Shown piece by piece: positions 34,649 to 63,713 of a DNA stretch of 64,000 nt. Numbering within the stretch: the first letter of the stretch is position 1; the number at the start of each line of letters is the position of its first letter. The position numbers and the translations under genes were made by a program. The DNA is from Minisyncoccota bacterium (GTDB taxonomy: Bacteria > Patescibacteriota > Minisyncoccia > Phycocordibacterales > UBA9973). The notes below the pieces were generated by a model. That model made no database searches. It was given only the letters and a program-made list of their open reading frames with translations, and was not told the origin of the DNA. The stretch is taken from assembly GCA_041650615.1 (NCBI GenBank), contig JBAZKU010000001.1:458750-522749 (forward strand). The letters run 5' to 3'.

Positions 34649-35515
34649 CTATCCTTTTTTGTTAATATCTATGGCTTTGGCAAGATTTAACCAATCTTCC
34701 AACGTCAGTTCTTCTGCCCTTTTATTCCCAAGTATCCTGGCGGAAGCTATTCTTCCGTATTTTGAGAGAGTTTTTAAATTTGAAGAGAGTTTTTTTCTCT
34801 TATGCGCAAAACCAGCGTGAATTATTTCCCAAAATTTCTCTTCATTTATTTTATTTTTAATAAAATTTTTTCTGGAAATATTTTTAATAGCAATGACCAC
34901 TGAATTCACATTAGGAACGGGTGAAAAGTACCGTGCCGGTACCTTCATAATCGTTTCAGGATTTCCATATGCTTTTACCGAGATTGAAAGAATGCTTTCT
35001 TTTTTATCTCTAGCCATAATTCTTTTGGCGACTTCGTTTTGAACCATCAATATCATTCTTTCCGGCTGATTTTTCTCCGTCAGAAATTTTTTTAATATTG
35101 CGCCAGTGATATTGTAAGGTATGTTGGCAATAATTTTATATTCAAAATCTGGGTGTTTCTTTCGATTTTGAGCTTCCCGAGGGGCCCACTCGGTAATCCG
35201 AGAAGGGCGCAGGGACGAAAAATCGGAAGAAACATCCAGATTTAAGATATCGTCATTTATTAGGATCAATTTCTCATCTTTAATTTCCTTAGAAAATTTT
35301 TCTTGCAAAAATTTAAAAAGTTCATAGTCTTTCTCTATGGCAATTACACAGCCAGCTCTTTCTAAAAGTTTTTCTGTCAGTGCGCCTTTTCCAGGACCGA
35401 TTTCTAAAATAATATCTTCTTCAGAGATTTCCCCAGCTTCCACTATTTTTTTTAGCGCCAAAGCAGACTTTAAAAAATTTTGCCCTAATGATTTTTTTGC
35501 CTTGTATATTTTCAT
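34649..35515 (-). CDS. rsmA: 16S rRNA (adenine1518/1519-N6)-dimethyltransferase
   Basis: LGQNFL motif and SAM-binding EIGPGKGALT; carries an in-frame GC-rich repeat insert at 35170-35223. Confidence 0.9.
   Translation of the reverse strand: MKIYKAKKSLGQNFLKSALALKKIVEAGEISEEDIILEIGPGKGALTEKLLERAGCVIAIEKDYELFKFLQEKFSKEIKDEKLILINDDILNLDVSSDFSSLRPSRITEWAPREAQNRKKHPDFEYKIIANIPYNITGAILKKFLTEKNQPERMILMVQNEVAKRIMARDKKESILSISVKAYGNPETIMKVPARYFSPVPNVNSVVIAIKNISRKNFIKNKINEEKFWEIIHAGFAHKRKKLSSNLKTLSKYGRIASARILGNKRAEELTLEDWLNLAKAIDINKKG
35170..35223 (-). repeat. Family C GC-rich palindromic element inserted in frame in rsmA
   Basis: ~54 nt nearly identical (reverse complement) to the intergenic copy at 51432-51481; encodes SLRPSRITEWAPREAQNR. 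Confidence 0.75.
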
Positions 35516-37584
35516 ATATAAATTGTTTTTATTCCGCCCTTTTCCCTTTCTTTTTCTATAATATCACTGGGAATATCAGAAATGAATTCTGATGGAGTAT
35601 TTATTTGGCGCGAACCGAAAATAGTGCGGAAATTTACAAACGATAAAAATAATTTTTCTTTGGCGCGAGTAAGCGCGACATAAAAAAGTCTACGTTCTTC
35701 TTCCTTATCTTCGGCATTTTTTATTTCACCATCTCTTTGGTGCGGAAAAAGTCCGTCTTCTAATCCTGTGACAAAAACATATTTGAACTCAAGTCCTTTT
35801 GAAGCATGCACGGTCATTAATTTTACGGCATTTTTATTTTCTTTTTTTTCTTGATTAAACATCATTCCGTCTTGATCCGAAGCCAAAGAAGCATCTTCTA
35901 AAAGTTTTTCTATTCCTGTCCCATCCTTTAAATCATTATATTTTAAGGCTAAAGTAGCCAATTCCTTTATATTTTCCAACCTTTCCATGTCTTCTTCGGT
36001 GCCGGAAAGAAGTTCTTTCTCAATGTCGGATTTTTTTATCGTAAATCTTATAACATCAGACGCTTTTTCAGTTACTATTTTTTCTTTTATTTCTTCCAAT
36101 GTTTTATAGAAATTATCAACTTTTGTTTTTACTTTTATTGGTAATGTTTCTTTTTCGCCGGCGAAAATTTTAGCTAGAGTTACTTTTCCTATTCCCCTTG
36201 CAGGGAAGTTTATTATTCTTTTTATATCAGACAAACTTTCTCTGTTAAGTGCAGCCCGAAGATATGCGAGAGTGTCTTTTATTTCTTTTCTTTCAAAAAA
36301 TTTAACACCCAAAACTTGATATGGAATATTATATCGGAGCATTGCTTCTTCCAACGCGCGCGATTGAAAATTCGCGCGGTATAAAACTGCGACTTCGGAC
36401 ATAGATGCGGGTGTGCTTTGAGGGGGTGTCTCAGATGGCGAAAGGCGAGGTATTCTCGAGCGAACCCTTGGTAGGAGCGACGGCGACGGACAGAGAAAAT
36501 TTTCAGCAGAAAATTTTCGTGGTGAGTCCGAGAATACCTCACCTGAAGCCCTGTCCATAATCTCTAAAACTTTTGTCGCGACAAAATCCGCTTCGTCACT
36601 TTCATCCAATGCTTCGTAAAAACCGATTTTCTCACCGATTTTATTTTTGGTGAATAAATTTTTATCCGGCCTGTATTTATTTTTCTTTATTATTTCGTTG
36701 GCCGCCTCTAAGATGTTTTGAGTGGACCTGTAATTTTCTTCAAGCAAAATTATTTTCGCACTAGGGTAATCTTTCTCAAAACTCAAAATATTTTTTAAAT
36801 TGGCTCCGCGCCAAGAATAAATATTTTGATCGGCATCCCCTACCACGCAGATATTTCTATTTTTTTCAGAAAGCAAGCGCGACATTAAATATTGTACTTC
36901 ATTTGTATCTTGATATTCGTCAATGTGGATGTAATCCCATTTTTCTTGATAAATTTTTCTAATTTGTTCATTTTCTTTTAACAACTTGGTTGCTTTTAAA
37001 AGCAAATCGTCAAAATCCAAAGAATTTTCTTTGACTTTTTTCTTTTCATATAAATTCCAAACTTGCGCCACTATCCCCCCAAAAAAATCATGCGTTCTTT
37101 CTTTATAATCCGCCAGAGGAGTAAATTTCCCCTTTTCCCGGCTGATTATGTTGCCTATTTTCTTAGGATCGTATTGTTTCGGGTCCAACCCCAGCTCCTT
37201 TAATGATTCCTTTATAAGGGTTGTTGAATCTGATTCATCTAAAATAGTGAAATGTCTGGTTAATCCTAAAATTCTTGCATTTTCCTTTATTATATAAACT
37301 CCCAAGGAATGAAAAGTACTAATAAAAGGTATAGTATTTTGGCCTTTGGCATTTTCCTTAATTTCCGAGATAATTCGTTCACGCATTTCTTTAGCTGCTT
37401 TATTAGTAAAAGTGACAGCTAGAATTTTCTCCGGAGCGATCCCATTTTTGATTAAATTTAGTATTCTATGCGTTATTGTCTTTGTTTTCCCCGCGCCTGC
37501 TCCGGCAACAATAAGAAGCGGTCCGTCTATATGGATTGCTGCCTCTCTTTGTTTACTGTTGAGTCCCCTTAAATGTTCGTCCAT
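35512..37584 (-). CDS. uvrD: ATP-dependent DNA helicase UvrD/PcrA
   Basis: Walker A AGAGAGKTKTITHRI and SF1 helicase motifs; carries an in-frame ~95-nt repeat element. Confidence 0.9.
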   Translation of the reverse strand: MDEHLRGLNSKQREAAIHIDGPLLIVAGAGAGKTKTITHRILNLIKNGIAPEKILAVTFTNKAAKEMRERIISEIKENAKGQNTIPFISTFHSLGVYIIKENARILGLTRHFTILDESDSTTLIKESLKELGLDPKQYDPKKIGNIISREKGKFTPLADYKERTHDFFGGIVAQVWNLYEKKKVKENSLDFDDLLLKATKLLKENEQIRKIYQEKWDYIHIDEYQDTNEVQYLMSRLLSEKNRNICVVGDADQNIYSWRGANLKNILSFEKDYPSAKIILLEENYRSTQNILEAANEIIKKNKYRPDKNLFTKNKIGEKIGFYEALDESDEADFVATKVLEIMDRASGEVFSDSPRKFSAENFLCPSPSLLPRVRSRIPRLSPSETPPQSTPASMSEVAVLYRANFQSRALEEAMLRYNIPYQVLGVKFFERKEIKDTLAYLRAALNRESLSDIKRIINFPARGIGKVTLAKIFAGEKETLPIKVKTKVDNFYKTLEEIKEKIVTEKASDVIRFTIKKSDIEKELLSGTEEDMERLENIKELATLALKYNDLKDGTGIEKLLEDASLASDQDGMMFNQEKKENKNAVKLMTVHASKGLEFKYVFVTGLEDGLFPHQRDGEIKNAEDKEEERRLFYVALTRAKEKLFLSFVNFRTIFGSRQINTPSEFISDIPSDIIEKEREKGGIKTIYI
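36447..36540 (+). repeat. Family B MITE-like element inserted in frame (antisense) in uvrD
   Basis: 12-nt terminal inverted repeats GAGGTATTCTCG/CGAGAATACCTC; ~65-nt core near-identical to the intergenic copy at 43664-43766. Confidence 0.75.
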
Positions 37585-39990: not shown

Positions 39991-40142
39991 ATGTAAAAAG
40001 ACCACCAAATATAACCACAATTTAAACAATGTAAAAAGACCACCAAATATAACCACAATTTAAACAATGTAATAAAGACCGTTAAATATAACCACAATTT
40101 AAACAATGTAAAAAGACCCTGAATATAATCGCAATTTTAAAT
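39991..40142. repeat. Tandem direct repeat, 4 copies of a ~38-bp unit (ATGTAAAAAGACCACCAAATATAACCACAATTTAAACA)
   Basis: Copies 1 and 2 identical, copies 3 and 4 degenerate; no spacers, so not CRISPR; sits between two tRNA genes. Confidence 0.85.
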
Positions 40143-43641: not shown

Positions 43642-43663
43642 ACATTATTATGATAACATAAAG

Positions 43664-43766
43664 TCGTGAAACTAAGATTTTTTCACCACGAAAATTTTCT
43701 GCTGAAAATTTTCTCTGTCCGTCGCCGTCGCTCCTCCCAAGGGTTCAAAAATCTTAGTTTCACGAC
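43664..43766 (-). repeat. Family B MITE-like element, intergenic copy, with 20-nt terminal inverted repeats GTCGTGAAACTAAGATTTTT / AAAAATCTTAGTTTCACGAC
   Basis: Perfect TIRs flank a GC-rich core (GAACCCTTGGGAGGAGCGACGGCGACGGACAGAGAAAATTTTCAGCAGAAAATTTTCGTGGTGA) shared with the uvrD insert. Confidence 0.8.
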
Positions 43767-43767
43767 T

Positions 43768-44682
43768 TTATTTGTGACTGTGAAACTTTTTATGTACATC
43801 TAGTAATTGCCTGTCAGTAACGTGAGTATAAATTTGAGTTGTGGCGATATTGGAATGTCCAAGCATCATTTGAACAGAACGGATGTCTGCGCCGTTTTGC
43901 AATAAATCCGTAGCGAAACAATGCCTAATTATGTGCGGGGTAACTTTTTTTGAAATACCGGCCTTAATCGCATATTGTTTCACAATTCTTTCAATAGACC
44001 TCTTGGTTAATGGACCAGTTTCTTTTTGAGAAGTTTCCTTTCCCACTTTTACAAAGAGCGCATCATCCATATCTTTTCGCAATGCCAGGTATTTTTTAAT
44101 GGCATCTTTCGCTTCGGGAGATATAAAAACCACTCTGATTTTTCCCCCCTTGCCACGAATGGAAAATTGTTCAGATCCGAGATCAATATCATTAGTTAAA
44201 CTACAGAGCTCAGAAACACGAAGACCGGTGGAAAAAAGGAGTTCCAATATAGCTTTATCTCGCAATGATTTTATGTCATTTCCTTTAGGTGCATCAAGCA
44301 GGCGGCGAAGTTCTGTTTGGGTGATTAAATCAAGAGATCTTTCCGTGATTTTAGCCAATTCTATTCTTTCAGCTGGCATTGATTTTATTCCTTGTCGTGC
44401 AAGATATTTCAGAAAGGCTCTTATGGCTATCAGATAATAATTTTGGGTTTTTTTAGACAAAGTTTCGCCTGTAGCTTTATTATTACCGGTGGATTGGCGA
44501 TTAAGCCAAAGACGAAATTCCCGCACGGTGTTGTCGTTTATATTTGTTGGATTATCATTTTTTACGAAATCTAAAAAGCGAGTAAGGTAATGGTCATAAT
44601 TTCTAACCGTATTAAGCGCTCGGCCTCTTTCTATTTCTACATATTCCAAAAATTGAGTTTTAAGCTGTTTGAGGGATGCCAT
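43768..44682 (-). CDS. xerC: Tyrosine site-specific recombinase XerC/XerD family
   Basis: R..HxxR..Y catalytic region HIIRHCFATDLL...LGHSNIATTQIYTHV. Confidence 0.9.
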   Translation of the reverse strand: MASLKQLKTQFLEYVEIERGRALNTVRNYDHYLTRFLDFVKNDNPTNINDNTVREFRLWLNRQSTGNNKATGETLSKKTQNYYLIAIRAFLKYLARQGIKSMPAERIELAKITERSLDLITQTELRRLLDAPKGNDIKSLRDKAILELLFSTGLRVSELCSLTNDIDLGSEQFSIRGKGGKIRVVFISPEAKDAIKKYLALRKDMDDALFVKVGKETSQKETGPLTKRSIERIVKQYAIKAGISKKVTPHIIRHCFATDLLQNGADIRSVQMMLGHSNIATTQIYTHVTDRQLLDVHKKFHSHK

Positions 44683-44720: not shown

Positions 44721-44812
44721 AAATCGTTGCCTATGAAGAATTTAAGAAACGTGTGGGTTCCCTGTCCTTTTGACTCCGAGGGCGCAATTTCGAAATTCTT
44801 CATAGGCAACGA
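44721..44812 (+). repeat. Family F structured element in the rpsO 5' region (21-bp closing stem ATCGTTGCCTATGAAGAATTT / AAATTCTTCATAGGCAACGAT around a GC core GTGGGTTCCCTGTCCTTTTGACTCCGAGGGCG)
   Basis: Perfect long inverted repeat; core is near-identical to the copy at 63621-63713. Confidence 0.7.
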
Positions 44813-45768: not shown

Positions 45769-47880
45769 ATGAAGAAAAAAGAGTATTCAGTTGAAATCGG
45801 CGGCAAGACATTGACTGCTATTTTCTCGGATTTAACAGAGCAAGCACATGGGTCCGTGATTTTAAAATACGGTGAAACAATTGTGTTGGCAACAGCTTGT
45901 ATGTCCAAAGACAGACAAGAAGGTTTGGGATTTTTTAATTTGACAGTAGATTATTTGGAAAAATTTTATGCTACCGGAAAAATTTTAGGGTCGCGCTTTA
46001 TGCACAGAGAAGGGAAACCATCAGAAGATGCAATTCTAGCTTGCCGAGTGATTGACAGAACTCTCCGTCCGCTTTTTAACCAATCTATCCGTCATGCTGT
46101 GCAAGTTATCACCACGGTCATTTCTTTAGACCAAGACGACCCGACAATTTTGGCCATCAACGCTGCTTCTCTTGCTTTGGCGGTATCTAATATTCCTTGG
46201 GCAGGACCAATCGGCGCAGTGCGTATTGGAAAATACGACGATGATAATTTGAAAATAAACCCCGCGCAGGGATTGCGACAAGATGATACAAAATATAAAT
46301 TTGACTTAACTATTTGCGGGAAAGATGGCAACTTGAATATGATTGAAGCCTCGGCTCATCAGGCCAAGGAAGAAGAATTGGAGGAAGCATTTAAAGTAGC
46401 AAGTGAGGAAATAACCAAATTAGAAAATTTTCAGAAAAAAATAGTGGCTGAAATAGGTATTCCAAAAAGGGTAATAGAAGAAGAAAAAATATCAGATGAA
46501 TCAGTAAAATTATTTAATGAAAATATATTACCGAAAATGAAAAGCGCCCTATTTGCCGGAGCCGGAAAAAAGAAAATAGACGAACTACATAATGTTTGGA
46601 ATAAAATGGTGGCAGAAAAATACCCGGACAGGGATGATTTCACTTTAGAGGATAATCTTTTTGATAACACGGAAAATAATATGCTACACGAAAAGGCTAT
46701 AAAAGAGAACAAGCGCGCCGATGGCCGGGCGATGGATGAAATTCGGGACCTTTATGTTCAAGCTGGAGGAATTTCTTCAATTTTGCATGGTAGCGGAATT
46801 TTTTATCGCGGAGGAACGCATGTGCTTTCTATCCTTACTCTCGCTGGCCCCGAAGAAAAACTTTTAGTTGACGGCATGGAAACAAAAGAAGAAAAAAGAT
46901 TTATGCATCATTATAATTTCCCGCCTTATTCCAGTGGGGAAGTTGGTCGTATAGGCACTACTAATCGCAGGGAAATCGGTCACGGGGCATTGGCTGAAAA
47001 AGCTTTAGCGATGGTTTTGCCGAGCGTGGAAGATTTTCCTTACACTATGCGCCTGGTTTCCGAATCAATGGCATCAAATGGTTCTACTTCTCAAGCTTCA
47101 ATCTGTGCATCCTCTATTGCCCTAATGGATGGAGGGGTTCCGATTAAAGCGCCGGTTGCTGGCATTGCTATGGGGCTGATGTATAAGAATAACAACGAGT
47201 ATAAAATTTTAACCGATATTCAGGGACCGGAAGACCATCATGGTGATATGGATTTTAAAGTTGCAGGGACAAAAGAAGGAATTACAGCCATTCAACTTGA
47301 TGTAAAAGTGGAAGGAGTGCCGATAAAAATATTAGCTGAAGCGATGGAACAATCCAAGAAAGCAAGAATCGCAATTTTGGATAAAATTGAAAAAGAAATT
47401 CCTACACCAAGAGCTCATATTTCTCCTAATGCACCAAAGATTCTGATTATCAGAATTAAGCAAGACCAAATCGGTATGGTTATCGGAAGTGGAGGAAAAA
47501 CTATTAAAGACATAAAAGATAAAACAGGGGCGGAAATAACTATTGAAGATGATGGCACAGTGTATTTAACTGGAAAAGATGATATGGCGGAAAAAGCTAA
47601 AGCTATTATAGAAGAAATGACTCATGAATTTAAAGTTGGAGAAGTGTTGAAAGGGGAAGTGGTTAAATTGGCGGATTTTGGAGTGTTTGTCAGATTAAAT
47701 CCTTTTACCGACGGGATGGTGCATATTTCCGAAATGGCTCCGTTTCGCGTAGAACGAGTTAGCGATATAATAAGAGAAGGGACAATTGTGCCAGTGAAGG
47801 TTATAAAGATTGATGAGGAAAGAGGGAAAATCAGCTTATCAATAAAAGAAGCAGATAAGAATTTTTTTAAGAAGCCTTAA
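45769..47880 (+). CDS. pnp: Polyribonucleotide nucleotidyltransferase (PNPase)
   Basis: Two RNase PH domains, KH and S1 C-terminal domains. Confidence 0.95.
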   Translation: MKKKEYSVEIGGKTLTAIFSDLTEQAHGSVILKYGETIVLATACMSKDRQEGLGFFNLTVDYLEKFYATGKILGSRFMHREGKPSEDAILACRVIDRTLRPLFNQSIRHAVQVITTVISLDQDDPTILAINAASLALAVSNIPWAGPIGAVRIGKYDDDNLKINPAQGLRQDDTKYKFDLTICGKDGNLNMIEASAHQAKEEELEEAFKVASEEITKLENFQKKIVAEIGIPKRVIEEEKISDESVKLFNENILPKMKSALFAGAGKKKIDELHNVWNKMVAEKYPDRDDFTLEDNLFDNTENNMLHEKAIKENKRADGRAMDEIRDLYVQAGGISSILHGSGIFYRGGTHVLSILTLAGPEEKLLVDGMETKEEKRFMHHYNFPPYSSGEVGRIGTTNRREIGHGALAEKALAMVLPSVEDFPYTMRLVSESMASNGSTSQASICASSIALMDGGVPIKAPVAGIAMGLMYKNNNEYKILTDIQGPEDHHGDMDFKVAGTKEGITAIQLDVKVEGVPIKILAEAMEQSKKARIAILDKIEKEIPTPRAHISPNAPKILIIRIKQDQIGMVIGSGGKTIKDIKDKTGAEITIEDDGTVYLTGKDDMAEKAKAIIEEMTHEFKVGEVLKGEVVKLADFGVFVRLNPFTDGMVHISEMAPFRVERVSDIIREGTIVPVKVIKIDEERGKISLSIKEADKNFFKKP

Positions 47881-47918
47881 TGTTATTTAAAAACTCTTTC
47901 TCGGTATATCTTTTTCTA

Positions 47919-47985
47919 GGGTACGGATTTTTTGAAGCTTAAAAAATCCTGAAGTTCTCGGCTCGTCAGCCTCGAAACCCCCTAA
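47919..47985 (+). repeat. Family A REP-like element (copy 1), 39 nt downstream of the pnp stop
   Basis: GGTACGGATTTTTTGAAGCTTAAAAAATCCTGAAGTTCTCGGCTCGTCAGCCTCGAAACCCC; contains a 9-bp hairpin GGATTTTTT/AAAAAATCC. Confidence 0.8.
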
Positions 47986-48021
47986 AAAAGATACACCTTC
48001 AACGAGTTTTTAAAATCAATT

Positions 48022-48894
48022 ATGGAAAACGAAAATAAATTTAAAAATAAAAATGTGGAAACCTATACCAGAGATATGGTAAAGGCTATTGAAAATGATA
48101 AAGGAGGATTGATAAAAAAAATAATTCACGAAGAAGAAGAGCATGAGGCTCAAAAGAAAAATTTATCTCCCGGCTCAAAGAAAAACAGGATATTTATGTT
48201 TATAAGCGTAGCACTTATATTTATAGCTTTAGCTGCTTTGTTTTTTTTGATATTTTTAAATAAAAAAATCGGCACCGTTTCAATTGTGCCACAAATGACT
48301 TCAATTATTTTTACCGATAAAAGTGATTTTAAAGCAATTGACGGACTTAATAAAGATAAAATAGAACAGACTGTTTTAAATCAGGTTAATGATACTGGAA
48401 CGAAGATAGGGGGAATAGATGGCATCTATCTTACGGAAAATAAAGAAACCGTAGGTTTTAAAGAATTTATAAAAATTATAAAAGGCAGTTTGATTGCTGA
48501 CCAGACGAGCTTAATTAGCGACAATTTTCTATTAGGAGCGTATGTAAGCGGCATAAAACAGACATCGCCCTCAGCAGGAGATTTTTTCATCTTGCTCAAT
48601 GTTCGTTCTTTCTCCGATATATTCCCAGTAATGCAAGCTTGGGAGAACAAAATGTTATATGACTTGGGTGGATTTTTCGGAATAGAAATAACTCCCAATA
48701 CCAATTATTTATTTACGAAAAATTTTGAGGATGGCATAGTGGCAAACAAAAATGCGCGAATTCTTTATGATAATAATGGGGGTATTGTTTTGATGTATAT
48801 ATTCGCCGACGATAATTTCATTATCATTTCCAATTCCGAATTAGCTACCCAGGAAGTAATCCTTCGACTGAATTCCAGTAAGATAAAAAAATAA
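48022..48894 (+). CDS. Hypothetical membrane-anchored protein
   Basis: 290 aa with one TM helix after a charged N-terminus. Confidence 0.5.
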   Translation: MENENKFKNKNVETYTRDMVKAIENDKGGLIKKIIHEEEEHEAQKKNLSPGSKKNRIFMFISVALIFIALAALFFLIFLNKKIGTVSIVPQMTSIIFTDKSDFKAIDGLNKDKIEQTVLNQVNDTGTKIGGIDGIYLTENKETVGFKEFIKIIKGSLIADQTSLISDNFLLGAYVSGIKQTSPSAGDFFILLNVRSFSDIFPVMQAWENKMLYDLGGFFGIEITPNTNYLFTKNFEDGIVANKNARILYDNNGGIVLMYIFADDNFIIISNSELATQEVILRLNSSKIKK

Positions 48895-48958
48895 AAAAGA
48901 TTTTTCTGCTTCTTTTGTCTGGCTATTTATTTGCCTTTTTGGGTGAAAGTGCTAGTAT

Positions 48959-49321
48959 TTGGGTATGTTAGACAAGAAAAAAATTAAAGAAAAATTGGAA
49001 AAGGAAAAAGAAGTTCTTCTTGAACAGCTTCGTGATATTGGAAAATTGAATCCGGAAACAAATGAATGGGAAGCAATTCCAGAAGAAAGAGATTCCAGAG
49101 AATCAGACCAAAATGACATGGCGGACAGATTTGAAGATTTTGAAGCAAGAAGCATTATGATAAAAGCCTTAGAAGGAAGAATGAATAGTGTTTTAAGCGC
49201 GCTTAAAGGATTGAATAGGGAGTCTTTTGGCAGATGTGAAGTATGCAAAAAAGATATTGAAATGGATAGAATGGAAGTCAACCCTGCAGCCAAAACCTGC
49301 AAGAAACATTTGAATGGGTAA
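48959..49321 (+). CDS. DksA/TraR-family C4 zinc-finger protein
   Basis: Coiled-coil N-terminus and CEVC-x17-CKKH zinc finger. Confidence 0.6.
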   Translation: MGMLDKKKIKEKLEKEKEVLLEQLRDIGKLNPETNEWEAIPEERDSRESDQNDMADRFEDFEARSIMIKALEGRMNSVLSALKGLNRESFGRCEVCKKDIEMDRMEVNPAAKTCKKHLNG

Positions 49322-49366
49322 TTAAAAAATAATATAAAATTAATGACAAAAGTAAAAAATTTTGTC

Positions 49367-49434
49367 GGTACGGATTTTTTGAAGCTTAAAAAATCCTGAA
49401 ATTGGCTCGCCGTCGCTCGCCAAACCCCTTAAAA
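49367..49434 (+). repeat. Family A REP-like element (copy 2), 46 nt downstream of the stop
   Basis: Near-identical to copies 1, 3 and 4 (GGTACGGATTTTTTGAAGCTTAAAAAATCCTGAAATTGGCTCGCCGTCGCTCGCCAAACCCC). Confidence 0.8.
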
Positions 49435-49466
49435 TCTTTTCTTTTGCCATTAATTTTTTAATAATC

Positions 49467-51008
49467 ATGAGTTTTGCAAAAGTTTATTCAGCACAAGTAA
49501 ACCTCCTTTCCGGTCAAATCGTAACCATAGAGGTTGATTTATCGCGTGGGTTGCACACTTTTAACGTGGTAGGACTTCCGGATAATGCCGTAAATGAATC
49601 AAAAGACAGAGTAAGTTCGGCTATAAAAAATTCCGGTTTTAAATCTCCCAAAGCCAAGAACCAAAAAATAATCGTCTCCCTTTCACCGGCCGACTTGAAA
49701 AAAGAAGGGCCGTTTTTTGATCTGGCTATTGCCCTCGCCTATATGCTGGCGTCGGAGGATTTAAAATTTGATTCTGAGAAGAAGATTTTTCTTGGGGAAC
49801 TGGGTTTAGACGGAACGCTGCGACGTATCAGGGGAGCGTTGCCCCTCGTTCAAGAAGCCAAGCGAGCCGGATATGAAGAAATCTTTTTGCCGAAAGAAAA
49901 TGCGGTTGAGGCGGCATTAGTGGAAGGGGTAAAAATTTTTGGCGCAAGCAGTTTAAAGGAAGTGGTGGAACATATTAATGAAGAAAAAAACAAGGAAAAT
50001 AAAAAAATAAAAATTCAACCGAAAACAGAAGTAAATTTTAAAAAAGAAAGAAAAAATTCCGACTTTTCTGATATTAGAGGACAAGAAGGCGCGAAAAGAG
50101 GATTGGAAATAGCGGCTGCCGGCGGACACAATATTGCTATGTACGGTCCTCCTGGTACGGGGAAAACAATGTTGGCGAGAGCCTTCTCTCAATTATTGCC
50201 GGACTTAGGGTTGGAAGAAGTTTTAGAGATCACCGGAATACACTCTGTTGCTGGAGTAACGCGAGGGGAATTAATTTCCACTCCGCCGTTTCGCTCTCCG
50301 CATCACACTTCTTCTTATGTCTCAATTATTGGCGGAGGAACTTATCCGAAGCCTGGGGAAGTGACCTTGGCACACAGAGGCGTTTTATTTTTAGATGAAT
50401 TCCCGGAATTTGAAAAAAGAGTAATTGAATCTCTACGACAACCATTGGAAGATAATGTTGTTTCAATTTCTAGAGCCAAAGGAACAGCTTCTTTCCCATC
50501 AAATTTTATTTTAGTGGCGGCAATGAATCCTTGCCCATGCGGGAATACCGGTTCAAAACAAAAAGTTTGTATTTGTAGGCCGTCTGATTTGGATAGATAT
50601 AAAAGAAAATTGTCGGGGCCGATAATGGATCGTATTGATTTGTGGGTTTCTGTCGGTAATGTTGATTATAAAAAGTTGGGGGAGGAGGGAAATGGGGAGA
50701 AAAGCGAAAAAATAAAATACAGAGTGACAAAAGCGCGGGAAATTCAAAAGAAAAGATTTGAAAAATTTGGTAGAAAAATACAAACAAATAGCGAAATGAA
50801 TGTGAAAGATTTATCCGGAATGATAAAACTGAAAGAAGAAGTAAGAAATCTACTGGATGATAGCGCCGAACGTTTGGCCCTCTCCGCTCGTGCTTATCAT
50901 CGGGTTATCAAAATCGCCCGCACTATTGCTGACCTGGAAAATTCAGAGGAAATTAACTCAAATCATATCTTAGAGGCTATACAATACAGACCGAAAGTGA
51001 ATAGTTAA
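49467..51008 (+). CDS. comM: Mg-chelatase-like AAA+ ATPase YifB/ComM
   Basis: N-terminal Lon-like domain, AAA+ Walker A GPPGTGKTMLA, C-terminal Mg_chelatase_C. Confidence 0.9.
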   Translation: MSFAKVYSAQVNLLSGQIVTIEVDLSRGLHTFNVVGLPDNAVNESKDRVSSAIKNSGFKSPKAKNQKIIVSLSPADLKKEGPFFDLAIALAYMLASEDLKFDSEKKIFLGELGLDGTLRRIRGALPLVQEAKRAGYEEIFLPKENAVEAALVEGVKIFGASSLKEVVEHINEEKNKENKKIKIQPKTEVNFKKERKNSDFSDIRGQEGAKRGLEIAAAGGHNIAMYGPPGTGKTMLARAFSQLLPDLGLEEVLEITGIHSVAGVTRGELISTPPFRSPHHTSSYVSIIGGGTYPKPGEVTLAHRGVLFLDEFPEFEKRVIESLRQPLEDNVVSISRAKGTASFPSNFILVAAMNPCPCGNTGSKQKVCICRPSDLDRYKRKLSGPIMDRIDLWVSVGNVDYKKLGEEGNGEKSEKIKYRVTKAREIQKKRFEKFGRKIQTNSEMNVKDLSGMIKLKEEVRNLLDDSAERLALSARAYHRVIKIARTIADLENSEEINSNHILEAIQYRPKVNS

Positions 51009-51032
51009 AAAGCAAAGAACAATATTTTTGCC

Positions 51033-51100
51033 GGTACGGATTTTTTGAAGCTTAAAAAATCCTGAAATTGGCTCGCCGTCGCTCGCCAAACCCCTTAAAA
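51033..51100 (+). repeat. Family A REP-like element (copy 3), 25 nt downstream of the comM stop
   Basis: Same sequence as copy 2. Confidence 0.8.
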
Positions 51101-51140
51101 ACATTGTTTTTTGCTTTTTAGGTTATCCACAGGTGGGTTG

Positions 51141-51169
51141 TTGACAGTGAACGCTCGTTCACTTATACT
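51141..51169 (+). promoter_or_regulatory. Consensus sigma70 promoter (TTGACA-17-TATACT) whose spacer is a Cheo-type LexA box GAACGCTCGTTC; TTATCCACA just upstream
   Basis: Palindrome GTGAACGCTCGTTCAC (GAAC-N4-GTTC) lies exactly between the -35 and -10; a LexA homolog is encoded 350 nt downstream. Confidence 0.6.
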
Positions 51170-51209
51170 TTAGGTAGGTCATTTATAAACAATTTAACCT
51201 ATATAAAAT

Positions 51210-51407
51210 ATGTCACAAAAACAATATATTAAAACTGTTGAAAGAGAAATCCAAAGAATCAATAGAATAATTGATTTGAAAATTCTTCGCGGGGAAGAAT
51301 ATTTTAGGGAAGCTAGAGACCATAAGCTTCTCTTGAAAAAAATACGCTTTTATAACAGGCAGAATTTTTTCAGAAAATTATTTCCAACTTTTTCTGTCCT
51401 TTTTTAA
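51210..51407 (+). CDS. Hypothetical small basic protein (65 aa) in the lexA operon
   Basis: ORF directly downstream of the SOS-box promoter; no recognisable family. Confidence 0.3.
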   Translation: MSQKQYIKTVEREIQRINRIIDLKILRGEEYFREARDHKLLLKKIRFYNRQNFFRKLFPTFSVLF

Positions 51408-51431
51408 ATTTCGCTCCGTTTCTTCAAATTT

Positions 51432-51481
51432 TTCGTCCCTGCGCCCTTCTCGGAGTACCGAGTGGGACCCTCGGGAAGCTC
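51432..51481 (+). repeat. Family C GC-rich palindromic element, intergenic copy
   Basis: TTCGTCCCTGCGCCCTTCTCGGAGTACCGAGTGGGACCCTCGGGAAGCTC; matches the rsmA in-gene copy. Confidence 0.75.
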
Positions 51482-51511
51482 AAAATTTAAAGAAACTTCG
51501 CTCAGATAAAA

Positions 51512-52078
51512 ATGAAAAACATTTATCAGACAAAACTGGAAAATTTCTACGGGAAAAATAAAAGAATGCCCACCTATTCTGAAATGCTGGAGCTTTTCAA
51601 TTTCAAATCCAAGAATGCTGTTTTTAAGATTGTAAATAAGCTGATTGAAGCGGGAATTGTTGCTAAGGACCATCTAGGAAGGTTGATGCCGACCGAGATT
51701 TTTAGTGAAATACCAAAACTCGGTTTTGTTACCGCTGGATTCCCAGCTACGGTAGAAGAAGAATTGACCGATACAGTAAATTTGGATGATTTTCTAATAA
51801 AAAATAAACCATTAACTTATATGTTAGAAGTGGATGGGGATTCTATGATTGATGCGCACATAGAAAAAGGGGATATGGTTCTCGTAGAAAAAACAAATCA
51901 AGCCAAAGACGGGCAAATTGTTATCGCGGAAGTGGATGGAGATTTTACAATGAAATATTTTAAAAAAAATGGTTCCAGGGTTTGGCTAGAACCAGCCAAT
52001 AAAAATTATAAACCAATTTATCCAACTCAAAGCTTGAATGTGATTGCGATATTAAAAGCTGTAGTTAGAAAATATTAA
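51512..52078 (+). CDS. lexA: LexA-like repressor (S24 peptidase)
   Basis: N-terminal winged-helix HTH, C-terminal S24 domain with GDSM Ser and MKYF Lys. Confidence 0.8.
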   Translation: MKNIYQTKLENFYGKNKRMPTYSEMLELFNFKSKNAVFKIVNKLIEAGIVAKDHLGRLMPTEIFSEIPKLGFVTAGFPATVEEELTDTVNLDDFLIKNKPLTYMLEVDGDSMIDAHIEKGDMVLVEKTNQAKDGQIVIAEVDGDFTMKYFKKNGSRVWLEPANKNYKPIYPTQSLNVIAILKAVVRKY

Positions 52079-52080
52079 AC

Positions 52081-52112
52081 AGAACAAAATAAAAAGCCCC
52101 TAAGGGGCTTTT
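52081..52112. terminator. Bidirectional intrinsic terminator between lexA and hup (AAAAAGCCCC-TAA-GGGGCTTTTT)
   Basis: Perfect 10-bp stem with an A-run and a T-run. Confidence 0.8.
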
Positions 52113-52136
52113 TATTTTTTATCTCGAGATAAAAGA

Positions 52137-52409
52137 TTAAGCAACTGCGTCTTTTAGGGCCTTGGCAGCTCTGAATTTTGGAACTTTCTTAGCAGCTACT
52201 TTGACTTGCTCTCCGGTCTTTGGATTGCGAGCTGTTCTAGCAGCGCGTGCCTTTACGGAAAAGATTCCGAAGCCGGCGATTGATACTTCGCCACCTTTCT
52301 TCATGGTGCCGATGATAGCGTCAAACAAACTGTCAACAATTTCTTCAGCTTGTACTTTTGTACCACCAAGCTTTCCATGTACTAACTCAGCTAATGCTTG
52401 TTTATTCAT
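52137..52409 (-). CDS. hup: DNA-binding protein HU
   Basis: 90 aa, GFGIFSVKARAARTARNPKTGE beta-arm motif. Confidence 0.9.
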   Translation of the reverse strand: MNKQALAELVHGKLGGTKVQAEEIVDSLFDAIIGTMKKGGEVSIAGFGIFSVKARAARTARNPKTGEQVKVAAKKVPKFRAAKALKDAVA

Positions 52410-52603
52410 ATTTTTAAAGGTTATTTTTATAATGCTTTCGACCGTTTGCTTATATAAATACTATCCATACATTATATATCAAGGGTTTTTTAAGGCAAGC
52501 TCCCACACTTTCTTCTCTGAAGCGCTAAAAAGCGTATTGTTATCAATATCAGGGAAGATAGTGTGGGGGCAAGTGTGTCTAAAATAGAAAAAGAATAATT
52601 TTT

Positions 52604-52669
52604 AAAGGGGTTTGGCGAGCGACGGCGAGCCAATTTCAGGAAATTTTAAGCTTAAAAATTTCCGTACCG
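52604..52669 (-). repeat. Family A REP-like element (copy 4, reverse orientation), 28 nt downstream of the rny stop on the minus strand
   Basis: Reverse complement matches copies 1-3, so it is sense to the upstream minus-strand gene. Confidence 0.8.
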
Positions 52670-52696
52670 ACTAAAAATTGATTCTTTTTCTATTTT

Positions 52697-54226
52697 TTAC
52701 CTCGCATATTCAATAATTCTGGTCTCTCTTATCATTGTAACCTTGATTTCGCCAGGGTATTTCAATTCTTGTTCTATTTTTACGGCAATATCATGAGCCA
52801 TTATCTTAGCTTCAGCGTCGGATACTTTTTCCGGAGTAACAAAGATGCGAATTTCACGGCCAGCCTGAAGCGCATACGATTTTTCCACTCCCGGAAAAGC
52901 ATTTACCAATCCTTCAAGTTCCTGTAATCTCTTCAAGTAATTTTCCACTGAATCACGGCGAGCTCCGGGTCTGCCACCGGAGATAGCGTCAGCTGTTTGG
53001 ACGATTACCGCTTCTATTGTTTCATACGGATAATCTTCATGGTGGGATTTCATTGCGGTGATAATGCGTTCGTCCGCTCCGAATTTCTGTAAAATTCTTA
53101 TCCCTATTTCAATATGTGTGCCTTGTACTTCGTGGTCCAACGCTTTACCGATATCATGTACCAGTGCCCCGGCTTTAGCTATCGCCACATCTGCGCCTAA
53201 TTCCTCGGCAATCATTCCAGCGATGTGCGCCATTTCAATGGAATGCTGAAGCACATTTTGTCCGTAACTGGTGCGGAAATATAATCGTCCAATAATAGCA
53301 ACAATACGTGGGTCAAAATTAAATATTCCGCATTCATATACCGCTTGTTCTCCTTTTTCTTTAATGATTTTATTTATTTCTTCTTTTGCTTTTTCTACTA
53401 GCTCTTCAATCTTGGCTGGTTGAATGCGCCCGTCTAAAATCAAGTTTTCAAGCGCAAGACGGGCAACCTGGCGTCTAATTGGGTCAAAGGAAGAAATAAT
53501 TATTGATCCTGGAGTATCATCCACAATAAGTTCAACCCCGGAAGCTCGTTCAAAAGCCCTTATATTTCGGCCTTCTTTTCCAATAACTTTGCCCTTAATT
53601 TCATTGTTTGGAATATTCACTATGGTTGTCATTAATTCAGAGGCGGTGCTTGAAGCAAGACGCTGGATAGAAGTGGCTAAAATGTCTTTTGCCCTGTTAT
53701 CTAGCTTTTCTTCATTGCTATTTTCAAGTTTTTGAATTCTGATCAAAAGATCTTCCTCGTATTTCTTTTCAATGTCTCTCATTAGCTCTCCTTTTGCTTC
53801 TTCTTCCGTTAGTTTTGATACCCTTTCTAATTCAATTATCTTTTCCGCTTCTATTCCCGAGACCTTTTCCTGAATTTTTTTTACTTCTTCTACCTTAAGT
53901 TTAATATTTTCAGTTTCTTTATTTATTTCCACTTGCCGAGCATCCAAAAACTCATCTTTTTTTATAAGTCTTTTTTCTGTTTCTTTATATTCCTCTTCTT
54001 TCTTTTTCTCTTCCTCTTTTAGCTCAGCAAGCCTTTTCTCTACTTTATTTTTAGCTTCATCTATAAGTTTCTGCGCTTCTTCTTTAGCGCCAACCAACAT
54101 CTGCTTTATATCTATTTCTATGGATTTTCTCTTTCCCAGCGCAACAACCATTCGCAAATAGTATCCGATTCCCGCGCCCAAAAGGAGCACTCCGACTCCG
54201 ATTAGAATTATTGTTAATAAGCTCAT
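52697..54226 (-). CDS. rny: Ribonuclease Y
   Basis: N-terminal TM, coiled coil, KH domain, HD domain HDIGK. Confidence 0.9.
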   Translation of the reverse strand: MSLLTIILIGVGVLLLGAGIGYYLRMVVALGKRKSIEIDIKQMLVGAKEEAQKLIDEAKNKVEKRLAELKEEEKKKEEEYKETEKRLIKKDEFLDARQVEINKETENIKLKVEEVKKIQEKVSGIEAEKIIELERVSKLTEEEAKGELMRDIEKKYEEDLLIRIQKLENSNEEKLDNRAKDILATSIQRLASSTASELMTTIVNIPNNEIKGKVIGKEGRNIRAFERASGVELIVDDTPGSIIISSFDPIRRQVARLALENLILDGRIQPAKIEELVEKAKEEINKIIKEKGEQAVYECGIFNFDPRIVAIIGRLYFRTSYGQNVLQHSIEMAHIAGMIAEELGADVAIAKAGALVHDIGKALDHEVQGTHIEIGIRILQKFGADERIITAMKSHHEDYPYETIEAVIVQTADAISGGRPGARRDSVENYLKRLQELEGLVNAFPGVEKSYALQAGREIRIFVTPEKVSDAEAKIMAHDIAVKIEQELKYPGEIKVTMIRETRIIEYAR

Positions 54227-54820: not shown

Positions 54821-54833
54821 TTTTTAATACACA

Positions 54834-54873
54834 AAGCCTCATCAATAATATTGATGAGGCTTTTATTTTTCCT
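54834..54873. terminator. Bidirectional intrinsic terminator (AAAGCCTCATCAATA-ATA-TTGATGAGGCTTT + T-run)
   Basis: 13-bp stem between convergent genes. Confidence 0.75.
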
Positions 54874-63620: not shown

Positions 63621-63713
63621 ATTATGAAAATTAAAAAATTTAAGGCGTCGTGGGTTCCCTGTCCTGTTGACTCCGAGGGCGAAGGCGCAAAAATTTTTTG
63701 AATTTTTATAATT
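63621..63713 (+). repeat. Family F structured element upstream of nusA (antisense to it), with imperfect ~21-bp flanking stem
   Basis: Core GTGGGTTCCCTGTCCTGTTGACTCCGAGGGCG near-identical to the rpsO-leader copy; flanked by ATTATGAAAATTAAAAAATTT / AAAATTTTTTGAATTTTTATAAT. Confidence 0.7.

What the first reader, a model, noticed from the sequence alone, without database searches (positions are those of the whole stretch)
47919..52669. Family A repeat: four copies, each 25-46 nt downstream of a stop codon and always in sense orientation
A ~68-nt element (GGTACGGATTTTTTGAAGCTTAAAAAATCCTGAAATTGGCTCGCCGTCGCTCGCCAAACCCC) occurs four times: after pnp (47919-47985), after the DksA-like gene (49367-49434), after comM (51033-51100), and as a reverse complement after the minus-strand rny (52604-52669).

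Each copy contains a 9-bp hairpin (GGATTTTTT/AAAAAATCC) with a HindIII-palindrome loop. The orientation tracks the upstream gene every time (4 of 4). This argues for a selected function at mRNA 3' ends, such as termination, 3' stabilisation or a protein-binding site, like REP/BIME elements. It argues against random MITE scatter.

The core CGCCGTCGCTC is shared with family B (uvrD insert), which suggests a common origin.
Basis: seen in the sequence. Interest (0 to 1): 0.6.

Follow-up and report, generated by a model that had tools for sequence, protein, structure and literature searches.

The report
Capped-hairpin mobile repeats in Paceibacteria
The four repeats are real copies of a small mobile DNA hairpin (a miniature transposon) with a very conserved 62-base cap, found across one group of ultra-small bacteria; it tends to sit just after genes, but no role at the ends of messenger RNAs is shown.

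Summary
There are exactly four copies, with cores at 47920-47981, 49367-49428 and 51033-51094 on the + strand and 52607-52668 on the - strand. Each lies 24-45 nt after a same-strand stop codon.

The core is a three-way junction; its two hairpins covary, and the arms differ between copies but stay complementary.

The core occurs in at least 118 loci from about 70 Patescibacteria (Paceibacteria) assemblies. No Rfam family matches.

The "always sense" rule does not generalise. In tandem intergenic regions the split is 25 sense to 12 antisense. The preference for gene 3' ends is real: convergent regions outnumber divergent ones 20 to 5.

The element is a MITE. The subfamily of window copy 1 has 17-nt terminal inverted repeats identical to those of a ~1-kb IS982-like insertion sequence, plus 6-8-bp target-site duplications. 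Copies also sit in frame inside pepN, and sister families sit inside uvrD and ksgA.

G.U pairs are not enriched on either strand. However, the cap is better conserved (92%) than the arms (about 76%) at syntenic sites.

Verdict: a new bacterial MITE family with an unusually constrained cap. An RNA 3'-end role is possible but not shown.

The parts
47883..48019 (+). Copy 1, whole element (subfamily A1, degenerate IS982-type ends). The arms are 47883-47919 and 47982-48019. It almost fills the spacer between the pnp stop (47878-47880) and the next start codon (48022).
   Evidence: The arms match the A1 consensus AAACTCTTTCTCGG...CCTTCAACGAGTTT.
47920..47981 (+). Copy 1, 62-nt cap. It is a three-way junction: a GGU/ACC closing helix, an 11-bp hairpin 1, the junction UGAAG, and hairpin 2 (UUC-UC-GGCU-CGUC-AGCC-UC-GAA).
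   Evidence: Covariance model hit of 91.7 bits, fold, covariation.
49330..49463 (+). Copy 2, whole element (subfamily A2), lying between the DksA/TraR-like ORF stop (49321) and the comM start (49467). The core is 49367-49428.
51005..51121 (+). Copy 3, whole element (subfamily A2). The 5' arm begins on the comM stop codon (51006-51008). The core is 51033-51094.
52581..52696 (-). Copy 4, whole element (subfamily A2), abutting the rny stop codon (52697-52699). The core is 52607-52668, with compensatory changes in hairpin 1.
36447..36540 (-). This is a capped hairpin translated in frame inside the pcrA/uvrD ORF. Its cap is weakly related to the family-A cap.
   Evidence: (16.1 bits, E 0.01).
43658..43771 (+). 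Second copy of the uvrD-insert family, intergenic. It lies immediately after the stop of the xerC/D-like integrase gene (43768-44682, minus strand) and antisense to it.
   Evidence: (I4, I10).

Best explanation
**What it is.** Family A is the conserved 62-nt apical cap of a family of non-autonomous palindromic mobile elements (MITEs) of 115-140 nt. They live in Paceibacteria (Patescibacteria) genomes.

**Anatomy (shown).** Each element is a long hairpin. The arms act as terminal inverted repeats and evolve fast while staying complementary. The tip is a three-way junction whose sequence is almost invariant.

**How it moves (shown for subfamily A1, which includes window copy 1).** The ends are the 17-nt inverted repeats of a ~1-kb IS982-like insertion sequence that encodes a 267-aa DDE transposase. 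Insertions are flanked by 6-8-bp target-site duplications. The element is therefore moved as DNA by a transposase supplied in trans.

**Subfamily A2 (window copies 2-4).**
- Shown: the arms share their own consensus, A-run + NCAAGAATAAA + TTTTTGCC [cap] TTAAAAA + ... + T-run.
- Not shown: how this subfamily is mobilised.

**Why it sits where it does (inferred).** The position right after stop codons and the partial orientation bias result mainly from which insertions survive in very compact genomes.
- A 115-140-bp hairpin is tolerated between a stop codon and the next gene's signals. It is best tolerated between convergent genes.
- Inside genes it is tolerated only in the antisense orientation, which has two open reading frames. 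The sense strand has stops in all three frames.

**Possible RNA effect (inferred, weakest step).** Once transcribed, the hairpin probably behaves like an intercistronic or 3' stem-loop of the REP type. It could act as an exonuclease barrier or a double-strand RNase site. A2 copies also have an A-tract/T-tract base that resembles a terminator.

**The cap (inferred).** Its strong conservation implies that it is recognised as a folded single strand by some conserved protein.
For: **Distribution**
- The core pattern is found in at least 118 loci from about 70 Patescibacteria assemblies, with 2-8 or more copies per assembly.
- No neighbouring gene family recurs: the largest cluster holds 11 of 862 ORFs.

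**Structure**
- 21 pairs are 96.8% paired. Twelve pairs change on both sides, and 0 of 500 shuffles reach the observed values.
- Anchored arm scores have a median of 16.4, against 3.2 for mismatched flanks.
- Even the proximal T-run/A-run swaps sides in some copies.

**Mobility**
- Related genomes carry the opposite orientation and different arms at the rny-HU and dksA-comM spacers.
- Downstream of comM, L095 has an ordinary terminator hairpin instead of the element.
- pepN carries an in-frame insertion of about 38 aa that includes the arms, in L081, L083 and P0005. It is absent from P0002, P0008, P0013 and P0014.
- Seven of nine long-form A1 copies have 6-8-bp direct repeats exactly at the ends of their inverted repeats.
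- Sixteen elements of 0.98-1.07 kb carry the same inverted repeats. The one ORF scanned (L152 1460-2263) matches PF13612 at E 1.2e-25 and the NCBIfam IS982 model at E 1.2e-28; tblastn finds transposase relatives in 21 of the TIR-retrieved loci.

**A2 arms belong to the element**
- Conservation extends to -27 and +26 from the cap and then drops to background.

**DNA-like pairing**
- Sense wobble mismatches number 83, antisense 89 (p 0.70).
- Both strands fold equally well as single-stranded DNA.

**Position**
- Convergent 20, divergent 5; tandem sense 25, antisense 12.

**Cap constraint**
- At syntenic sites the cap is 92% identical, the arms 74-78% and the outer flanks 67-71%.
- In a set retrieved by terminal inverted repeat, and so unbiased for the cap, the caps still score 67-81 bits. 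There the 'invariant' G6-C30 pair covaries to A-T.
Against: - Window copies 2-4 (A2) show no clear target-site duplication, and no autonomous partner was found.
- No transposase or intact IS982-type end lies in the window or in about 0.9 Mb of genome loci.
- A purely selfish element should decay after insertion, yet the cap stays nearly identical while the arms diverge. This needs selection, gene conversion or very recent spread.
- The IS982-type ends also carry at least 46 unrelated cargos, and the insertion sequence itself lacks the cap. The cap is therefore a separable module of unexplained origin and role.
- The orientation bias, and the slightly better fit of orientation to GC skew than to gene direction (11:2 among discordant cases), are not explained by survival alone.
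- Most copies were retrieved with a pattern that fixes 19 of the 62 positions, which inflates apparent conservation.
Confidence: 0.72

Rival explanations
1. The element is a selected RNA signal at mRNA 3' ends. Read in the sense orientation, the capped hairpin would terminate transcription, or protect or process the 3' end of the upstream message. The cap would be a protein-binding site. Mobility would only be the way the signal spreads.
For: - 98 of 116 copies lie within 150 nt of a stop codon on at least one side.
- Convergent spacers are enriched about 2.7-fold over background.
- Sense orientation is in excess: 41:16 crude and 25:12 de-duplicated.
- A2 arms have an A-run/stem/T-run base like the native bidirectional terminators at 52086-52118 and 54833-54863.
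- In the window, several gene ends (pnp, the DksA-like ORF, comM, rny, xer, lexA/HU, clpP) carry either a capped element or an ordinary terminator.
- The cap is more conserved than its flanks at syntenic sites.
Against: - About 30% of tandem-spacer copies are antisense, and the orientation flips at orthologous sites.
- There is no G.U excess on the sense strand.
- As RNA, the antisense strand folds better in 97 of 115 copies.
- The genes after copies 1 and 2 start within 10 nt of the hairpin with no room for a promoter, so strong termination there would silence them.
- Copies persist inside the pepN reading frame, and sister families inside the uvrD and ksgA frames.
- There is no Rfam match.
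Confidence: 0.17
2. The cap is a separate mobile or structure-specific DNA module that acts as folded single-stranded DNA. This would resemble REP/RAYT, IS200/IS605 ends or integron attC sites. It would insert into, or be copied onto, the tips of existing hairpins, whether MITE centres or terminators. That would explain why the same cap tops unrelated arm sets.
For: - The same cap occurs on three different arm types: IS982-type ends, A/T-run arms, and the GCTCGCT-flanked type.
- The IS982-like insertion sequence lacks the cap, and its ends carry many other cargos.
- Hairpin tips do receive nested palindromes. A 20-nt GC palindrome sits in the AAGCTT loop in L080 and L138, and there is an insert in hairpin 2 in L051.
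- Wobble use is strand-neutral.
- The element strand lies on the G-rich strand 86:36, and follows the skew in 11 of 13 discordant cases.
- On the sense strand, mismatches are pyrimidine-pyrimidine 316 versus purine-purine 67. This is a strand-specific design.
Against: - In pepN the arms are part of the inserted DNA.
- A2 arms are homologous between genomes rather than derived from the target.
- No Y1/HUH transposase or other recurrent gene lies next to copies.
- No empty hairpin site was found.
Confidence: 0.09
3. The cap is a small catalytic or otherwise autonomous RNA, such as a self-cleaving ribozyme or an sRNA. It would be carried in many copies with a variable closing stem.
For: - It is a compact three-way junction with near-invariant junction nucleotides and covarying helices.
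- The outer stem is variable, as in genomic hammerhead or twister copies.
- On the antisense strand the internal loops become tandem G.A pairs.
Against: - No Rfam family matches at E up to 1.
- The junction strand lengths (2, 5 and 0 nt) do not fit the hammerhead core.
- There is no G.U enrichment.
- No promoter-like site is conserved.
- Both orientations occur relative to genes.
Confidence: 0.02

Closest known systems
Bacterial MITEs derived from insertion sequences (here an IS982-family element)
   Same: - Short, non-coding and present in several dispersed copies.
- Terminal inverted repeats identical to those of a ~1-kb transposase-encoding insertion sequence.
- 6-8-bp target-site duplications.
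- Presence or absence differs between related genomes.
   Different: - The most conserved part is the internal tip, not the ends.
- The same cap sits on at least three kinds of arms.
- Copy number per genome is low: 2-8 as a lower bound.
- For window copies 2-4, neither a target-site duplication nor a partner insertion sequence was found.
REP/BIME elements of enterobacteria (and REPIN/RAYT systems)
   Same: - Extragenic palindromes concentrated after stop codons and between convergent genes.
- They can sit between cistrons of one operon.
- They could plausibly act as 3' stem-loops.
   Different: - REPs are imperfect palindromes of 20-40 nt with a conserved tetranucleotide, present in hundreds of copies, and tied to a Y1 transposase.
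- Here the unit is 115-140 nt with a three-way-junction cap and few copies.
- Its link is to a DDE transposase, and no RAYT-like neighbour was seen.
Rickettsia palindromic elements (RPEs)
   Same: - Palindromic elements of about 100-150 bp in a reduced genome.
- They are found both between genes and as in-frame, translated insertions inside conserved protein genes. Here that is pepN for family A, and uvrD and ksgA for the sister families.
   Different: - The host lineage is different, and sequence similarity was not tested.
- RPEs are not known to carry insertion-sequence-type ends with target duplications or an invariant apical junction (stated from my own knowledge).
Neisseria Correia elements
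   Same: MITEs that are co-transcribed with neighbouring genes. Their long stem formed by inverted repeats affects mRNA processing and stability.
   Different: Correia elements duplicate a TA target, are very abundant, and have characterised promoter and RNase III effects. None of that is shown here.

Membership tests
MITE (non-autonomous derivative of a DDE insertion sequence) | Short element with no coding capacity of its own | tested here: met
   The elements are 115-140 nt. The sense strand of the core has stop codons in all three frames.
MITE (non-autonomous derivative of a DDE insertion sequence) | Terminal inverted repeats | tested here: met
   Arms of 16-60 nt are complementary in 114 copies: median score 16.4 versus 3.2 in the control. 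A1 ends are TTTGAATTACGAAACTC / GAGTTTCGTAATTCAAA.
MITE (non-autonomous derivative of a DDE insertion sequence) | Target-site duplication flanking the element | tested here: inconclusive
   This is met for A1: 7 of 9 genome copies have 6-8-bp repeats, and many metagenome copies have 8-bp repeats. It is not resolvable for A2, which includes window copies 2-4. Across all copies the excess is weak: direct repeats of 6 nt or more occur in 24% versus 13% of controls.
MITE (non-autonomous derivative of a DDE insertion sequence) | An autonomous insertion sequence with the same ends that encodes a transposase | tested here: inconclusive
   This is met for A1. Sixteen elements of 0.98-1.07 kb share the same ends, and a 267-aa ORF in one of them (L152) matches DDE_Tnp_1_3 at E 1.2e-25. 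The IS982 NCBIfam model scores 100 bits, below its 130-bit cut-off. No partner was found for A2, and none lies in the window.
MITE (non-autonomous derivative of a DDE insertion sequence) | Dispersed copies with insertion polymorphism between relatives | tested here: met
REP/BIME (RAYT-associated) | Imperfect palindrome of 20-40 nt with a conserved tetranucleotide at its foot, in hundreds of copies | tested here: not met
   The unit is a 62-nt three-way junction on arms of about 30 nt. At least 2-8 copies per assembly were seen (the scan was truncated).
REP/BIME (RAYT-associated) | Association with a Y1 (RAYT) transposase gene flanked by the repeats | tested here: not met
   No gene family recurs within the 8-kb loci. 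Whole genomes were not searched.
Intrinsic (Rho-independent) terminator | A stable stem directly followed by a U-tract, at the end of a transcription unit | tested here: inconclusive
   A2 arms end in A-run/T-run like the native terminators. However, the stem encloses about 75 nt, copies 1 and 2 are followed within 10 nt by the next gene, and no general T enrichment appears beyond the arms. No transcript data are available.
Any Rfam RNA family, including self-cleaving ribozymes and tRNA-like elements | Match to a curated covariance model | tested here: not met
   A scan of 30000-64000 at E up to 1 gave no hit on any of the four copies.
Rickettsia palindromic element-like in-frame palindromes | A palindromic element inserted in frame and translated within conserved genes | tested here: met
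   pepN in L081, L083 and P0005, compared with homologues that lack the insert. The sister families sit in pcrA/uvrD and ksgA. Sequence homology to RPEs was not tested.

The most novel reading that the evidence does not exclude
The 62-nt cap may be a functional, protein-recognised folded module under purifying selection across the class Paceibacteria. It could act as RNA or as single-stranded DNA, and it has been grafted onto several kinds of mobile hairpin. In effect it would be a portable 3'-end or intercistronic signal, for example for RNA processing, for RNA stability or as a terminator cap. Alternatively it could be a new structure-specific recombination site. It would be spread by MITEs and retained by the host.
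Probability: 0.2. Interest if true: 0.7.

Novelty: new member of a known kind. Interest (0 to 1): 0.45.

Why it matters
Patescibacteria have tiny, densely packed genomes and are usually thought to carry little repetitive DNA.

This finding shows that they host modular hairpin MITEs. Some of these are tied to an IS982-like element. They settle at gene ends and can even be translated inside housekeeping proteins (pepN, uvrD, ksgA).

Practical consequences:
- These elements will confuse gene calling, because they produce spurious ORFs and protein insertions.
- They are useful markers of recent genome change in uncultured lineages.

If the conserved cap turns out to have a host function, it would be a rare example of a mobile, ready-made RNA or DNA signal in a poorly understood part of the bacterial tree.

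Tried and rejected
- **Rfam.** A permissive scan of the region gave nothing on the copies.
- **Hammerhead-like core.** I compared the junction strands with the hammerhead core by eye. The lengths and sequences do not fit.
- **Arms as pre-existing terminators split by a cap insertion.** I rejected this as the general model. In pepN the arms are part of the inserted DNA, and A2 arms share a consensus across genomes. It is kept only as a minor rival.
- **Hairpin base from RNAfold with 70-nt flanks.** This over-extends in AT-rich DNA. I replaced it with an anchored, Watson-Crick-only extension.
- **Local alignment of flanks.** It was too noisy, with a control median of 19 matches.
- **A gene that travels with the element.** None was found.
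- **Target-site duplications across all copies.** Only a weak excess outside subfamily A1.
- **Literature.** Searches for Patescibacteria or Parcubacteria MITEs, palindromic repeats and structured RNA motifs found nothing relevant.
- **Close pepN homologues.** The search returned only fragments, but they were enough to define the insertion.
- **Transposase or intact IS982-type ends in the window.** None.
Full report
**1. The observation**

The window is AT-rich, with 28-42% G+C. Protein look-up places it on a 147-kb metagenome contig.

The motif GGATTTTTTGAAGCTTAAAAAATCC occurs three times on the + strand, and a variant occurs once on the - strand. Shuffled sequence gives no matches. A covariance model built later finds exactly four copies in the 64 kb when every position is scored, at 75.8-91.7 bits.

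The cores are 47920-47981, 49367-49428 and 51033-51094 on the + strand, and 52607-52668 on the - strand. They lie 39, 45, 24 and 28 nt after the stop codons of four genes:
- pnp
- a DksA/TraR zinc-finger ORF
- comM
- rny

Pfam supports these identities. All four copies are in the sense orientation, but 4 of 4 has a chance probability of only 1/16.

**2.

Each core is the tip of a much longer inverted repeat. With the arms included, the elements span 47883-48019, 49330-49463, about 51005-51121, and 52581-52696. Copies 1 and 2 almost fill the spacer between a stop codon and the next gene; copies 3 and 4 abut the upstream stop codon but are followed by about 90-170 nt of spacer. They fold with z-scores of -3.4 to -6.9.

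The core itself is a three-way junction with these parts:
- a GGU/ACC closing helix
- hairpin 1, which copy 4 keeps through compensatory changes
- the junction UGAAR
- hairpin 2, which has a symmetric UC/UC internal loop and a CGNC loop

The arms differ between copies but remain complementary.

**3. Distribution**

Nearly all are Patescibacteria of the Paceibacteria/Parcubacteria group: Nomura-, Vogel-, Yonath- and Yanofskybacteria, plus MAGs labelled Saccharibacteria. They come from about 70 assemblies, with 2-8 copies each as a lower bound.

Rfam has no matching family. Three literature searches found no description.

**4. The structure is under constraint**

On 118 sequences, 96.8% of cells form pairs. 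Twelve of the 21 pairs change on both sides. None of 500 shuffles reaches the observed values, and slid registers collapse.

The upper stem of hairpin 2 runs through GGCU/AGCC, GCGC/GCGC, GUGU/ACAC, GCCC/GGGC and other combinations.

The arms have a median length of 31 nt. They score 16.4, against 3.2 when flanks from different copies are paired. In some copies the proximal T-run and A-run have swapped sides.

**5. RNA or DNA?**

- Transition mismatches in the arms would be G.U on the sense strand in 83 cases and on the antisense strand in 89 cases (p 0.70). Inside hairpin 2 the counts are 6 versus 10. A structured RNA read from one strand should show a clear G.U excess; none is seen.
- As RNA, the antisense strand folds better in 97 of 115 copies. 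The reason is that the UC/UC loops become tandem G.A pairs.
- As single-stranded DNA, both strands fold equally well.
- There is a real strand asymmetry of another kind. Mismatches on the sense strand are pyrimidine-pyrimidine 316 times and purine-purine 67 times.

**6. Orientation and position genome-wide**

With simple ORF calls, tandem spacers hold 41 sense and 16 antisense copies, convergent spacers 32 and divergent spacers 9.

With stricter calls and syntenic sites counted once, the figures are:
- tandem spacers: 25 sense to 12 antisense (p 0.047)
- convergent to divergent: 20 to 5 (p 0.004)
- background in the same loci: 504 tandem, 78 convergent and 75 divergent spacers

So the preference for 3' ends is real, while the orientation rule holds for only about 70% of copies.

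Related genomes carry the element in the opposite orientation at the orthologous rny-HU and dksA-comM spacers.

The element strand lies on the G-rich strand in 86 of 122 cases. In the 13 cases where skew and gene direction disagree, orientation follows skew 11 times. This is suggestive only.

The genes after copies 1 and 2 begin within 10 nt of the hairpin, so transcription must normally pass through it.

**7. It is mobile DNA**

- *No companion gene.* No gene family recurs next to the copies.
- *In-frame insertion in pepN.* In two genomes (L081, L083) and one metagenome protein (P0005), the element sits in frame in the antisense orientation inside the M1 aminopeptidase gene. Close homologues read IPIT-FKKN-KVNF where these have an extra ~38 residues, which cover both arms and the cap. 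The arms therefore arrive with the element.
- *A2 boundaries.* For subfamily A2 (window copies 2-4), conservation extends to -27 and +26 from the cap. The consensus is AAAAAANCAAGAATAAAATTTTTGCC[cap]TTAAAAAYTTTATTCTTGNTTTTTT, and beyond it conservation falls to background.
- *A1 ends and duplications.* For subfamily A1 (window copy 1 is a degenerate member), the ends are TTTGAATTACGAAACTC and its complement. Seven of nine copies are flanked by 6-8-bp direct repeats.
- *Autonomous partner.* A metagenome scan with that end sequence found 16 elements of 0.98-1.07 kb with the same ends. One of them (L152) holds a 267-aa ORF that matches DDE_Tnp_1_3 at E 1.2e-25 and the IS982 model at E 1.2e-28, below NCBI's cut-off. 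tblastn with that ORF finds relatives in 21 of the TIR-retrieved loci.
- *Other cargos.* The same scan found 52 MITE-sized elements. Six carry the family-A cap and 46 carry other palindromic cargos, typically with 8-bp duplications.
- *Origin of the cap.* The insertion sequence itself lacks the cap, so the cap is a separable module.
- *In the window.* There is no transposase and no intact end of this type.

**8. The cap is unusually conserved**

At 13 syntenic site pairs, the cap is 92% identical, the arms 74-78% and the outer flanks 67-71%.

In loci retrieved by the end sequence, which is unbiased for the cap, caps still score 67-81 bits. Two intermediate variants score 23-26 bits. In that set the otherwise invariant G6-C30 pair changes to A-T.

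One caveat applies: most copies were retrieved with a pattern that fixes 19 positions, which inflates apparent conservation.

**9. Sister families**

The family-A model weakly hits the uvrD-insert family: 36474-36523 (-) and 43685-43734 (+), E 0.01.
- One copy is translated in frame inside pcrA/uvrD. Compared with PcrA, there are about 45 extra residues (query 347-396 against PcrA 348-352).
- The other copy follows the xerC/D-like gene.

A third family lies in frame inside ksgA (35145-35243) and before lexA (51418-51496). All of these fold as capped hairpins.

**10. Conclusion**

The finding is a real and apparently undescribed family of capped-hairpin MITEs in Paceibacteria.

Its position after stop codons is best explained by where such insertions can survive in compact genomes. 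A 3' stem-loop effect on RNA is possible but undemonstrated.

The open question is why the cap is so well conserved and why it appears on several arm types.

Noticed in passing
window 35145-35243 and 51418-51496: A third capped-hairpin repeat family; the two copies are 92% complementary over 79 nt. One copy lies in frame inside the ksgA/rsmA ORF (34649-35515, minus strand; PF00398 at E 1.9e-61). The other is intergenic, just before lexA.
   Followed up: partly
window 36447-36540 and 43658-43771: The uvrD-insert family. One copy is translated in frame inside pcrA/uvrD, giving about 45 extra residues compared with PcrA (1pjr). The other abuts the stop codon of a xerC/D-like integrase gene. The cap is weakly related to family A (E 0.01).
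   Followed up: partly
window 52494-52573: A ~68-nt insert with the inverted ends cccacac/gtgtggg, flanked by CTTGCC direct repeats. It is absent from the orthologous spacer in L095 and L100. It sits just upstream of a promoter-like TTGCCT-16-TATAAT for the HU gene.
   Followed up: partly
L152 1383-2386 (also L139, L122, L167, L194 and others): An IS982-like insertion sequence of about 1.0 kb with a 267-aa DDE transposase. Its 17-nt ends also flank dozens of different small palindromic cargos in groundwater metagenomes, with 8-bp target duplications.
   Followed up: partly
L080 6282-6363; L138 2933-3072 and 2272-2431: A 20-nt GC-rich palindrome, CCTGCCTGCCGGCAGGCAGG, is inserted in the AAGCTT loop of family-A caps and in another cargo. 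It appears to be a tiny nested palindrome that lands in hairpin tips.
   Followed up: no
L050, L052, L070, L075, L115 (for example L052 6896-7017): A third arm type for the family-A cap. The stop codon TAA is followed directly by AGRCCGCTCGCT. The short-armed hairpin is bracketed by direct GCTCGCT repeats and followed by CTCTGAG. It occurs after four different genes: tuf, gyrB, a secretion ATPase and a small basic protein.
   Followed up: partly
window 51141-51169: A strong promoter-like site, TTGACA-17-TATACT, containing the palindrome GAACGCTCGTTC (SOS-box-like). It lies upstream of a 65-aa ORF and lexA, and is conserved in L095 and L030.
   Followed up: no
window 44753-44784 and 63650-63681: A 32-nt direct repeat (97% identical), GTGGGTTCCCTGTCCTTTTGACTCCGAGGGCG. 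One copy is in the leader or N-terminal extension of the rpsO ORF.
   Followed up: no
window 39997-40118: Three tandem copies of a 38-39-nt unit (91-93% identical), lying between tRNA genes.
   Followed up: no
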